Assembly: GCA_951406725.2 (NCBI GenBank)
Contig: OX597820.1
Span: 47,802,001 to 47,866,000 of the forward strand
Reading direction: 5' to 3'
Source of the DNA: Octopus vulgaris
Taxonomy: Eukaryota
DNA: 64,000 nt
Shown here: one piece after another, positions 4,495-59,785 of the stretch
Layout of the letters: each line of letters begins with the position of its first letter
Position numbering within the stretch: position 1 is the stretch's first letter
Notes under the pieces: generated by a model
Databases searched by the model: none
What the model was told of the DNA's origin: nothing
The model's input: only the letters and a program-made list of their open reading frames with translations
Translations under genes and position numbers: made by a program

Positions 4495-4530
<36 letters not shown>

Positions 4531-4534
<4 letters not shown>

Positions 4535-4712
4535 ATCCAAACAAGAAAACACAGAAAAAAAGAGAAAAAAACAGCAACGCGAGGACGTGGAACAATTAAA
4601 GTATTATTGACGCTCTGGAAAGAAGGGAAGGAGGGTTTAACGTTTCGAGCGGAGCTCTTCGTCGGAAACAAGGAGAAGGAAAGATCCCAAGAAGGGAAGA
4701 CAGAGGAAAAAA
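4531..4712 (-). mobile_element. About 185-bp hammerhead-containing mini-element, copy 1, ending at (TA)n
   Basis: Close inverted copy of 59521-59712 with the same two boundaries. Confidence 0.8.
4635..4669 (-). ncRNA. Minimal type I hammerhead ribozyme motif, CCGACGA core variant
   Basis: Minus strand GTTT-CCGACGA-A-GAGC tcc GCTC-GAAA-CGTT-AAAC: stem I GTTT/AAAC, stem II GAGC/GCTC, palindromic stem III, predicted GUU site. Confidence 0.65.
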
Positions 4713-5221
4713 TATTTTTGCTGGTGGTGCTCAAGAGATCACATACAGCCAATTCTAGGATGGAAGGTCCTCATTAGGGATTAAATACTTCAAAAATGTC
4801 ACTGGTTAATCACTATCATTTAAAGAGAAAGTCTCGGCGATATATTAGGGATTATTATAGTAATACATATTGTTAATGATGAAAGAAAGAAAATGATGGA
4901 GAATTATGGATGTATAAATAATTTATTTGTATTATATAATGGGGGTGTAAGTTCTTTTATAAAAACAATACAAATGAATTACAAATTATAAAGCTCTAAA
5001 AGAAATGGCAGGTGCCAAAAACTTACATATATGTTTCGATTCATGCCCCAGCGTTCACATCATATTGTATCATATTTAAAATCAAGTATTGTCAACAGTT
5101 TGAAGATTTCACCGTTAAGATATGTATCTTGAAAACCTGATTGGTAAACGCTTAGTTGTCAATATCTAAAATGTATATATACATATTTATGTATTTATAC
5201 ATTTGTATATATATATATGTA

Positions 5222-8399: not shown

Positions 8400-9650
8400 A
8401 GTCACTCTATAAGTGCATCTTGGAAATACCTACAGCACATTTGGAAAAGAAGTAAATTTACATAAATTTTGATAACAAACCTGTTGATAATATGAACAAC
8501 CTCCGAAATAGAGTGGAACATTAAGAGAACATCTTACAGTTGAAGGGCAATAAATAAGTCTAAAACATACTAACCACTTTTTAAAACTGTTGACAATATC
8601 AACTGAAGAGTTCAACTGTAAATAACATCAACTTGAGTGTTTAACAGTAAATAGCATTATACAATTTAAGGTGAATTAATAAGTGTATGACATACCAATC
8701 TCTAAAAAGATAGCTAAAATGTACTGAGATTCCACATGCCTTCGTTTTGAAAGGAAATTCATGAACGTAAAATATTGAGTAAAAAAAATCTGTTATCGAA
8801 AATGTGTTTTCAATTTGATAATGTCTGGAGGAAAAGGCATCAACGTGACCACCTACCATCACACATGAATGAACAAAATAAAAGCACTATCATTTCTACC
8901 AAGAAATAGAATTAAGTTTCTTCGAACTGAAAACGCACCACAATCACCAATATCGATAGTGTAGTACATATCCTATATGACGATAACAAAAATCAATTAC
9001 GCAGCTGAGAAGGTGAACTTGATAAAAACTAAAGAAGAAAATAAACAATAAATGACAGAAAATTGGTAAACATGTGTATTTGTATCCAAAGTAAACAAAA
9101 TAAATCATACAAAGATATTCAGGTAATATACTCTGCTAAAAAGAAAAGCTCATGACAAACATCTTTTGTAAGTCAGACACAAAAGAAAAAAACACTTAAG
9201 TAAGATTGGAAAACAATGAAAACTTTTTATTTTCCAAGATCATAGCTTCGATCTCTTCAATCAGTTAAGCTCCATAAAATCCTAGACTCAAAAGCTTCAG
9301 AGTCTGACAGAATTACAAGTTTACACTTAAATATGTAGTGTCTGACGGAATAAGTTTTCTCCACCAGCAGCTTACATCTACGGCTACAGAGAGAAAATTT
9401 GTGAACCCCGTAATCTAAGCAAAATCATGTTTAGATTATGAGGTTATTTGGGTTTAAGTCCTGCAGAAACAAACGTAAAGTAGCATCACATAGATCCATT
9501 ACCCTCTGAAAGATGCCAATTCTTCGGAATCACATGGTTTTAAGGAAAGGACAATAGGTATTTTTCAGGAGATAATACAACTATGGACACATGTTTCTAA
9601 TCAATAGGCGTCTTCGGTAGAGCAGTTATCTTACCTTGACTCTAGCAGGA
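8400..9650 (+). pseudogene. Possible highly decayed LINE reverse transcriptase
   Basis: A-rich stretch with ordered weak motifs (YRKC.., IFQDHSFDLF like IFQGDSLSP, FGFKSC, QFFGI); many stops. Confidence 0.3.
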
Positions 9651-20910: not shown

Positions 20911-22015
20911 CACGATAAGTGAAGGTCATATCCTTGACTAATGTAGGTTTTCCTCATCCCATAGCTATTTTATGGTAGTTTAAAATTTGTTCCATTTTAT
21001 AAATATATTTGCACTAACATGTAAGTCTATCAGGTATGTTCGTTTTTCTTTTTAACCATCTGGCAATAAATCAATTAATCTTATTCAGACTGTCTATGTA
21101 TTTGTCTACCTTTCCTTCTCTTGCACTCTCTCTCTTCATATACATACATACACACACACACGCATATATATATATATATATACACGTTTATAAATATACA
21201 TATATATATACACATATATACACAAACATATACGTAGTATATATATATAATATATATATGTATATATATATCATATATGCATATATACGCATATAGTACA
21301 TATATCACATATTCATATGTATCTATGTACATATATTATACTTCCTTCGCTTCCCTCTCTTTCCCCCTTCTCACCCCAACTATGTACCCAGTACACCCTT
21401 ATTGCGACTTATATATATGCACACACACGCACGCTCGCACACACACACATATAAATATAGGTATAGTTATATACTTACAAACATGTGTGGGTGTGTGTGT
21501 TTAACTCAGGACCAATTTCATTTCTTGTAGGTGATGATCTAATGTACTGAATGATGTATACAAAAAGTCTCAATAACCTGAAATTTACCCTTTAGCTGGG
21601 GGAAATAAACAAATTCCTACCGTCAGTTGTTGACGGCTACAAAATACTGAGTGTTGGAGATAAACAAGAACAGAAATAATTTCACAGAAAATCTCATTCT
21701 AGAGTTAGGGACCAAAATTTGAATTTTGTTAGCAGACAAGGTGAAAAAGAATTATGAAGTTGTTTCGATAGCAACACCATATCAGAGAATCATACAATTT
21801 GTTAGCTTGTTTAATTCGGGAAAATACGAGTATAAGCGCAGGCGTAGGTGTGTGGTTAAAAGCTTGTTTTCCAATAACATGGTTCCGAGTTCTATCCTAC
21901 TGCTTGGCACCTTGGGCAAGTGTCTTCTACTAAAGCCTCGGGCTAACCTGACCAAAGCCTTGTGAGTGGATTTCGTACACGAAAACTGCAAGAAGCCCGT
22001 CGTATATATATATAG

Positions 22016-22176
22016 TATATAAGAATTTTTTGCGCAATAAGATAAAAAACCAAGGCTGTAGAGTATTAGAGCATTTATAGATAGAAGGTCTTACAGTTGT
22101 TTCTAGGATATTTATTAATAATATCCCTTCATCGGAGACGGTGTGAGAGGAATGTTAAGTCATAGTTAGTTTAGAT

Positions 22177-22179
<3 letters not shown>
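22016..22179 (-). mobile_element. Hammerhead-containing mini-element in (TA)n
   Basis: About 165 bp of non-SINE sequence flanked by TA repeats on both sides. Confidence 0.65.
22088..22139 (-). ncRNA. Type I hammerhead ribozyme motif, CCGATGA core variant
   Basis: Minus strand GTCT-CCGATGA-A-GGGATATT attaata AATATCCT-A-GAAA-CAACTG-TA-AGAC; predicted GUA site. Confidence 0.65.
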
Positions 22180-59164: not shown

Positions 59165-59296
59165 CATATATATATATATATGCATATTTATACATACATA
59201 CACACATATATACATACACATTTACATACATATACGTATACATAAACACGCAAACACAGTGTCATTCAGAAGACTACAGTAAAAAAGAGAATTTGG

Positions 59297-59460
59297 AAAG
59301 GCGTGGCAGTGTGGTAAGAAGTTACCTTCTCAAGCACACGGTTTCCGGTTCAGTCCCATTGCGTGACACCTGGGGCAAGTATCTCTTTTACTATAACCTC
59401 CGTCTGGCCCGGAACCATCTACACAGATTTGGTAGATGTCGTCTGAATGATGCCCATCGT
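59297..59460 (+). mobile_element. Old SINE family B head
   Basis: ggttcagtcccattgcgtgacacctggggcaagt. Confidence 0.7.
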
Positions 59461-59520
59461 ATATCTACATACATTTACTTATATATATGTGTGTGTATAT
59501 ATGTGTATATATATTTGTGT

Positions 59521-59708
59521 AGCAAAAATATTTTTTCCTCTGTCTTCCCTTCTTGGGATCTTTCCATCTCCTTGTTTCCGACGAAGAGCTCCGCTCGAAA
59601 CGTTAAACCCTCCTTCCCTTCTTTCCTGAGCGTCAATAATACTTTAATTGTTCCACGTCCTCGCGAGGCTGTGTTTTTTTCTCTTTTTTTCTGTGTTTTC
59701 TTGTTTAT

Positions 59709-59712
<4 letters not shown>
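59521..59712 (+). mobile_element. About 190-bp hammerhead-containing mini-element, copy 2
   Basis: Close inverted copy of 4531-4712; followed by (TA)n. Confidence 0.8.
59574..59608 (+). ncRNA. Minimal type I hammerhead motif, CCGACGA core variant
   Basis: GTTT-CCGACGA-A-GAGC tcc GCTC-GAAA-CGTT-AAAC, identical to 4635-4669. Confidence 0.65.

Positions 59713-59785
<73 letters not shown>

What the first reader, a model, noticed from the sequence alone, without database searches (positions are those of the whole stretch)
59521..59712. Defined 185-190 bp retrozyme-like unit in two copies with a 35-nt U4C-variant hammerhead
Seen: copies at 4531-4712 (-) and 59521-59712 (+), 55 kb apart, share both ends (AGCAAAAATATTTTTTCC... 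to ...TTAAC(TA)n). The 35-nt hammerhead motif is identical while the flanks differ at several positions. The core is CCGACGA instead of CUGANGA and the predicted site is GUU. Stem III (ACGU) has no loop, so it could form only between two molecules. Inference: a discrete element, not random truncations, with a non-canonical obligate-dimer ribozyme.
Basis: partly seen in the sequence, partly recalled or inferred. Interest (0 to 1): 0.75.

Follow-up and report, generated by a model that had tools for sequence, protein, structure and literature searches.

The report
Penelope-like retrotransposon end with variant hammerhead
These two stretches are cut-short tail ends of a common kind of jumping gene, present in thousands of copies in this genome, whose small predicted self-cutting RNA carries one unusual letter and likely still cuts some of the time.

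Summary
Both copies and the motif are real, but they are not a stand-alone retrozyme. They are solo 3' pseudo-LTR (pLTR) ends of a Neptune/Nematis-type Penelope-like element (PLE). Full copies read pLTR - RT + GIY-YIG ORF - (CA)-rich UTR - pLTR, about 6 kb. Loopless ACGU stem III, GUU site and dimer cleavage are the published PLE minimal hammerhead (PMC4209133). The residual interest is C4. It is lineage-level (7,583 CCGACGA and 2,681 CTGACGA of 11,607 motifs) and conserved between subfamilies (2 of 35 nt differ, against 31% of 4-fold sites). It is also the majority state in two unrelated hammerhead families here. 5' ends of C4-lineage copies pile up from the predicted cut (25 of 180 at +1..+22, 3 at -1..-22), which suggests cleavage in vivo. 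The mostly-U4 lineage shows none (0 of 49), which is unexplained. U4C itself is known from a viroid.

The parts
59521..59712 (+). Copy B: 5'-truncated solo pLTR (3' end) of a Neptune/Nematis-type PLE, subfamily A; begins 84 nt upstream of the predicted cut
59574..59608 (+). Type I minimal hammerhead: stem I GUUU/AAAC, core CCGACGA, extra A, stem II GAGC-UCC-GCUC (59586-59596), GAAA, palindrome ACGU (59600-59603), N17 = U
   Evidence: sequence; layout as in PMC4209133
59579..59579 (+). C4 in place of canonical U4; majority state of the family
59604..59605 (+). Predicted cleavage site (GUU|A); 5' ends of C4-lineage copies accumulate from here downstream
59713..59772 (+). (TA)30 target microsatellite at the fixed 3' junction
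   Evidence: TATATA follows the 3' end in 82 of 91 sampled copies
4531..4744 (-). Copy A: solo pLTR of the same subfamily; begins 106 nt upstream of the predicted cut, inside the main 5'-end cluster
4635..4669 (-). Minimal hammerhead of copy A, identical to that of copy B
4499..4530 (-). (TA)16 target microsatellite at the 3' junction of copy A

Best explanation
The two stretches are 5'-truncated solo copies of the 3' pseudo-LTR of an autonomous Penelope-like retrotransposon (RT plus C-terminal GIY-YIG endonuclease) inserted in (TA)n, and the motif is that element's minimal hammerhead, predicted to cut only as a dimer and likely still weakly active despite C4. Shown: the element anatomy, fixed 3' end, (TA)n target, clustered 5' ends and constraint on the motif. 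Inferred: a promoter in the pLTR starts an RNA about 110-125 nt upstream of the cut. The endonuclease nicks (TA)n. The RT primes at the UUAAC-UUUAUAUA tail about 100 nt downstream of the cut and copies back to or near the 5' end of its template. That gives about 215-nt solo pLTRs from uncut RNA (copy A), about 100-nt ones from ribozyme-cut RNA (about 14% of C4-lineage copies), and long copies when priming is at the downstream pLTR. Odds: identity as a PLE pLTR about 0.97; Neptune rather than Nematis about 0.75; C4 ribozyme cuts in vivo about 0.55; -114 cluster is a transcription start about 0.5.
For: Full elements have the unit at both ends of an RT-EN ORF, 4.5-6.2 kb apart (L065, L067, L074 in subfamily A; L079-L081, L083 in subfamily B). 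The ORF has DKG, YIDD, a CX4CXXC linker and GIY-YIG with two cysteines, with Pfam RVT_1 and GIY-YIG hits below the curated cut-offs and 474 relatives at E<=1e-30. Internal pLTRs continue TTAAC TTTATATA CCGC... into the 5' UTR; terminal ones end TTAACTATATA (28 of 91) or TTAACTTTATA (27 of 91). Between subfamilies A and B, both reached through the EN search, the motif differs at 2 of 35 nt against 123 of 397 four-fold sites (binomial p 3e-4). N17 is U, A or C and never G in 60 of 60 motif-picked copies. In 180 copies picked by their 3' terminus alone, 25 ends fall at +1..+22 (7.1 per 1000 nt at risk), 9 at +23..+66 (1.2) and 8 at -1..-65 (0.9); 16 fall at +1..+10 and 0 at -1..-10. The fullest 22-nt window starts exactly at +1, and 0 of 20,000 uniform draws reach it.
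Against: The mostly-U4 lineage, which should cut better, has 0 of 49 ends at +1..+22 (Fisher p 0.003 against the C4 sets, computed on 48 unique copies). The predicted monomer fold pairs the core GACG with CGUY, forming a hairpin whose foot lies at the cut, so an RT stall would give the same boundary. This misfold is strongest in subfamily B (-8.8 against -0.5 kcal/mol for the open-core fold). The double hammerhead is far from the two-strand minimum (-5.7 against -22.5 kcal/mol). Motif against its own pLTR flanks by substitutions only is borderline (2 of 35 against 35 of 171, Fisher p 0.05). Most copies span the site, so most templates were uncut. In the Anolis PLE, hammerhead cleavage needed protein, was dispensable for insertion in vitro, and no RNA-seq reads ended at the site (PMC11167929). 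The 22-nt window width was chosen after seeing the data.
Confidence: 0.88

Rival explanations
1. Same element, but the C4 motif no longer cuts in vivo. It is kept as a structural or protein-binding hairpin, and the 5' ends at +1..+22 come from the RT stalling or switching template at the hairpin whose 3' foot coincides with the cut. (Confidence is for this sub-question.)
For: The core-paired hairpin ends at N17. Subfamily B has a U-U mismatch in stem I and the strongest misfold, yet 13 of 90 ends at +1..+22. U4C considerably lowers activity in vitro (PMC3088659, passage citing the viroid variant).
Against: U4-GUU copies have a stronger hairpin than subfamily A (-7.7 against -6.5 kcal/mol) and no pile-up. 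All other catalytic positions, the ACGU palindrome and H17 are kept, which a plain hairpin would not need. The cluster has a sharp upstream edge and a tail of about 20 nt, like the -114 cluster.
Confidence: 0.4
2. One reading: an independent, fixed-length 185-190 bp non-autonomous retrozyme.
For: 76 of 90 subfamily A copies end within 200 nt upstream of the cut, so short solo units dominate. Retrozymes are argued to derive from PLE pLTRs (bioRxiv 10.64898/2026.07.22.740005, part 1 of 5 read).
Against: There is no shared 5' end (0 of 90 within 6 nt of -84). The sequence is collinear with the pLTR of full elements. No head-to-tail arrays of the short unit are seen, apart from one pair 184 bp apart among the first 100 hits (not inspected). 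65 of 90 subfamily B copies extend beyond -255.
Confidence: 0.04
3. C4 is post-insertion decay or a private mutation of a canonical U4 motif.
For: Canonical CTGACGA exists in 2,681 copies.
Against: CCGACGA is in 7,583 copies, in 70 of 73 readable subfamily B copies and in 54 of 64 regex hits in subfamily A, with no CTGACGA among the latter. It sits in both pLTRs of intact 99.8%-identical elements. A tree with positions 4 and 17 masked groups most U4 copies apart from C4 copies.
Confidence: 0.01

Closest known systems
Minimal hammerheads (min-HHR) in pLTRs of metazoan PLEs (Cervera & de la Pena 2014, PMC4209133; read: main text parts 1-2 of 4, supplement file 2 parts 1-2 of 3)
   Same: Type I; extra nt after A9; G10.1-C11.1; loopless palindromic ACGU stem III; short stem I; U-rich 5' flank; GUU or GUC site; dimer-only, low activity; mostly solo copies from truncated PLEs. 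The Acropora digitifera Neptune entry has a closely similar layout (CUGACGAA, 4-bp stem II ending GCUC, GAAACGUC).
   Different: C4. Every representative I read in Fig. S3 has U4 (CUGA or UUGA), but their descriptor required it, so C4 motifs could not be found there.
Neptune/Nematis clades of EN+ PLEs (Craig et al. 2021, PMC8557442; read: passages, section 11, supplement searched)
   Same: RT, then CX2-5CxxC linker, then C-terminal GIY-YIG with CCHH; DKG; partial tandems forming pLTRs; microsatellite targeting is stated for Neptune.
   Different: Clade not fixed by a tree with reference elements. The unit is about 6 kb because of a (CA)-rich 3' UTR of up to about 2.7 kb. The family motif was not found in that paper's supplement.
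Natural U4C hammerhead of a viroid (PMC3088659 passage; the original, Ambros & Flores 1998, not held, title only) and CYGANGA descriptors (PMC13481778 passages)
   Same: The same core substitution; reported as reduced in vitro but sufficient in vivo; C/U degeneracy at this position is already in a published descriptor.
   Different: There it is a variant of an RNA replicon with a full stem III. Here it is the majority state of three genomic repeat families, in one of them with no stem III loop at all.
Poseidon_Ac of Anolis (Frangieh et al. 2024, PMC11167929; read parts 1-2 of 4)
   Same: Internal RT initiation downstream of the pLTR hammerhead; AT-rich targets; protein-assisted hammerhead.
   Different: There priming is at a non-homologous AC-rich stem loop inside the ORF, and no RNA ends were found at the cut. 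Here the 3' junction lies at a TA-like tail matching the target, and genomic 5' ends cluster at the cut.
Non-LTR (animal) retrozymes (bioRxiv 10.64898/2026.07.22.740005 part 1 of 5; PMC7229834 search listing only)
   Same: Short, type I hammerhead, pLTR-related.
   Different: Retrozymes are tandem non-autonomous units with defined monomers. These copies are dispersed, have variable 5' ends and are collinear with an autonomous element.

Membership tests
EN+ Penelope-like element | Single ORF with RT and GIY-YIG endonuclease | tested here: met
   816-aa (L065) and 1008-1009-aa (L079-L083) open frames with DKG, YIDD and GIY-YIG; Pfam hits weak, below cut-off
EN+ Penelope-like element | Partial tandem forming pLTRs on both sides of the ORF, hammerhead in the pLTR | tested here: met
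   The unit lies at both ends in L065, L067, L068, L074, L079-L081, L083
Neptune/Nematis | C-terminal EN with CCHH and a CX2-5CxxC linker; DKG unmodified | tested here: met
   CSRSRCNTC linker, LIYCIKC..C..Y[IV]GQT, then EH and RHF; this excludes Naiad/Chlamys (N-terminal EN) and Hydra (no CCHH, DKT) as defined in PMC8557442
Neptune (versus Nematis) | Placement in an RT tree with reference elements | not testable with these tools
PLE minimal hammerhead | Stem I, extra nt, G-C-closed stem II, GAAA, palindromic 15.2/16.2, NUH | tested here: met
PLE minimal hammerhead | Core CUGANGA (U4) | tested here: not met
   C4 in the window copies and in 7,583 of 11,607 motifs; sister subfamilies have U4. 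Filed as a variant.
PLE minimal hammerhead | Self-cleavage as a dimer | not testable with these tools
   Indirect only: 5'-end cluster from +1 in C4 lineages, absent in the U4 lineage
Non-LTR retrozyme | Defined monomer, tandem arrays, no linked ORF | tested here: not met
   Variable 5' ends, dispersed copies, collinear with an ORF-bearing element
Non-LTR retrozyme | Circular RNA of unit length | not testable with these tools
   Only assembled contigs of runs guessed to be RNA were available
Rfam hammerhead families | Covariance-model match | tested here: not met
   No hammerhead family at E<=10 on 59500-59715; expected for a loopless minimal form (own knowledge)

The most novel reading that the evidence does not exclude
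U4C is a working, repeatedly adopted form of the retroelement hammerhead in this genome (majority state in three unrelated families). The genome holds a fossil record of its cutting in vivo: about 14% of C4-lineage insertions begin at or just after the cut, while the canonical U4 lineage left no such copies. C4 may help by removing a U4-A1.1 pair that extends a core-sequestering misfold (about 1 kcal/mol). CUGANGA-based surveys would then miss a large share of PLE ribozymes.
Probability: 0.35. Interest if true: 0.6.

Novelty: new variant of a known kind. Interest (0 to 1): 0.33.

Why it matters
The element, the dimer-only ribozyme and the GUU site are ordinary. Whether PLE hammerheads cut in vivo and what for is still open (PMC8557442, PMC11167929). 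This family offers a natural U4/C4 pair on an otherwise identical 29-nt scaffold, thousands of datable copies, and a 5'-end map whose edge sits on the predicted cut, so the question can be tested directly. It also shows that searches fixed on CUGANGA miss 7,583 of 10,264 intact C4 or U4 motifs of this family.

Tried and rejected
Rfam: no hammerhead in the 150 of 339 window hits shown or in the local scan. PDB sequence search with the ORF: 0 hits. Expression: no RNA holder listed. Contigs of four runs guessed to be RNA cover the pLTR but cannot show starts, ends or strand; not used as evidence. BLAST-based 5' extents crept into microsatellites and failed for 2 of 31 copies; replaced by 3'-anchored sampling and local alignment. 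The variable-column test over six subfamily majorities (4 of 35 against 135 of 205) is inflated, because four groups were largely picked by the motif itself and gaps were counted; I rely instead. The 0.9% divergence of subfamily A is biased low (best BLAST hits); its ORFs are 92-97% identical, against 99.8-99.9% for B. Direction U4 to C4 is unrooted: U4 groups are older (3.4-5.7%) than B, but one small C4 group is 5.4% (n=5). No ORF link was shown for the two other C4 families in 12 fetched stretches. In one search, 1 of 50 loci was dropped (wrong side fetched), two are duplicates, and 4 of 28 readable cores were C4. Papers not held: Lunse et al. 2017, which may already list C4 among its short-stem-III variants, and Ambros & Flores 1998. 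Supplement file 1 of PMC4209133 could not be searched, and bioRxiv supplements are closed; either may bear on the novelty of C4. Literature searches. None of their listings showed a report of C4 in PLE hammerheads or of genomic 5' ends at a PLE hammerhead cut.

Full report
Observation. The 35-nt motif is identical and reads as a type I hammerhead: stem I GUUU/AAAC, core CCGACGA, an extra A, stem II GAGC-UCC-GCUC, GAAA, ACGU, U17. With only five difference events between the copies, an untouched 35-column block has P about 0.37, so two copies alone show no constraint.

Copy number and extent. The unit has 1,540 first-look candidates in a 2.8-Gb genome. The 29-nt motif with four free positions occurs 11,607 times (control 0). 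Two of four extended copies led 1.3-2.7 kb upstream through a (CA)-rich stretch to a GIY-YIG fragment. That protein has 16,066 candidates in the genome. Of twenty 10-kb stretches around EN hits, eight carry the unit on both sides of an RT-EN frame (L065, L067, L068, L074, L079-L081, L083), with motifs 4.5-6.2 kb apart in the seven measured. The protein has DKG, YIDD, a CSRSRCNTC linker and a two-cysteine GIY-YIG. By the definitions in PMC8557442 this is Neptune or Nematis, not Naiad, Chlamys or Hydra. (TA)n targeting favours Neptune; no reference tree was possible.

The 3' end. Internal pLTRs continue TTAAC TTTATATA CCGC into the 5' UTR. Terminal ones stop at TTAAC followed by TATATA (28 of 91) or TTTATA (27 of 91), and TATATA follows in 82 of 91. 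This fits priming at a TA-like tail on nicked (TA)n DNA (inference; internal initiation is shown for another PLE in PMC11167929).

The ribozyme against the literature. The loopless palindromic stem III, the extra nucleotide, GUU sites, dimer-only low activity and many solo copies from truncated PLEs are all described in PMC4209133. Only C4 departs from that paper's representatives, and their descriptor demanded U4. A natural U4C is known from a viroid, weaker in vitro but sufficient in vivo (PMC3088659), and CYGANGA is in use as a descriptor (PMC13481778).

C4 is a lineage trait. Exact counts are CCGACGA 7,583 and CTGACGA 2,681. In the first 100 hits (hand count) T4 occurs 23 times and the mirror CpG change A5 4 times, so U4 copies are mostly their own subfamilies. 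A tree of 119 copies with positions 4 and 17 masked groups most U4 copies apart, with scattered T4 copies inside C4 groups. The youngest subfamily B (ORFs 99.8-99.9% identical, intact 1008-1009-aa frames) has C4 in 70 of 73 readable copies. Between A and B the motif differs at 2 of 35 nt, against 31% of 397 four-fold sites (p 3e-4) and 20% of 171 aligned flank positions (p 0.05). N17 is U, A or C in 60 of 60 copies. Two sequence-unrelated hammerhead families also have C4 as the majority: 2,197 hits with 74 of the first 100 (one copy lies in this window at about 22015-22179, minus strand) and 185 hits with 97 of the first 100 (hand counts). Their link to an ORF was not shown.

5'-end map. I sampled the first 90 listed copies each of A and B by the 3'-terminal 22-27 nt only and mapped their 5' ends, with +1 as the first base after the predicted cut. 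Ends at +1..+22 number 12 (A) and 13 (B); at +23..+66, 8 and 1; at -1..-65, 5 and 3. Pooled, there are 16 ends at +1..+10 and none at -1..-10, the fullest 22-nt window starts at +1, and 0 of 20,000 uniform draws match it (window width chosen after viewing). A larger cluster lies at -93..-130 (37 A, 6 B), with its edge at a homologous TTTCA, a candidate start site; PLE promoters lie in the pLTR (PMC6765202 passage). A third cluster lies at -66..-92 in A (12).

Results against. In 49 copies sampled the same way from the mostly-U4 lineage, none ends at +1..+22 (p 0.003), although U4 should cut better. Folding predicts that the core GACG pairs with CGUY in the monomer. That hairpin ends at the cut, so an RT stall could give the same edge. 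It is about 1 kcal/mol stronger with U4 (U4-A1.1 pair), which could explain weaker cutting in U4-GUU copies, but it is strongest in B, which has the pile-up. Neither cutting nor stalling explains all three lineages. The double hammerhead is not the predicted two-strand minimum, in line with the protein-assisted cleavage reported in PMC11167929.

Verdict. This is the ordinary pLTR end of a Neptune-type PLE, not a discrete retrozyme. The lineage-fixed and recurrent U4C core, and the clustering of genomic 5' ends at the predicted cut, are modestly new and directly testable. I did not find them in the searches listed under Tried and rejected, but the most relevant paper (Lunse et al. 2017) was not available.

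Noticed in passing
window 22015-22179 (-); L145-L164, L177-L181: 3' end of a second repeat family (2,197 motif hits) with a hammerhead-like motif: GTCT/AGAC stem I, CCGATGA core, AT-rich stem II, palindromic ACAGCTGT stem III, GUA site. It ends in (TA)n, and some copies continue through a TTATATATAC tail, as in the main family. No ORF link shown.
   Followed up: partly
L063:629; L165-L176; L182-L188: Third hammerhead family (185 hits) with CCGATGA core, 6-bp stem I, palindromic ACACG(G)TGT stem III and GUC site. It occurs in partial tandems of about 363 bp and in inverted pairs, which is more retrozyme-like than the finding itself.
   Followed up: partly
L066:1105(+) and 855(-); L018; L126: Hammerheads with the U3-A8 covariant core (TTGAAAA), a variant already described in PMC4209133.
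   Followed up: no
window about 9560-9640 (-): Degenerate hammerhead-like string CCGAAGA...GAAACATGTGTC; stems incomplete.
   Followed up: no
L429-L478: In the U4 lineage five 5' ends cluster at +37..+41, where ATAATACTATA resembles the (TA)n target; probably a microhomology hot spot.
   Followed up: no
window about 59296-59445 (+): A SINE-like repeat with a tRNA-like head lies just upstream of copy B; similar repeats flank many loci (label from my own knowledge; ARAGORN found no tRNA).
   Followed up: no
L183:5255-4710 (-): 182-aa open frame with a cysteine pattern recalling interleukin-17-like proteins (label recalled, not tested).
   Followed up: no
G000:C1:119858849-119867924: Four subfamily B pLTRs about 3 kb apart in tandem, a possible internally deleted tandem array (listing).
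   Followed up: no
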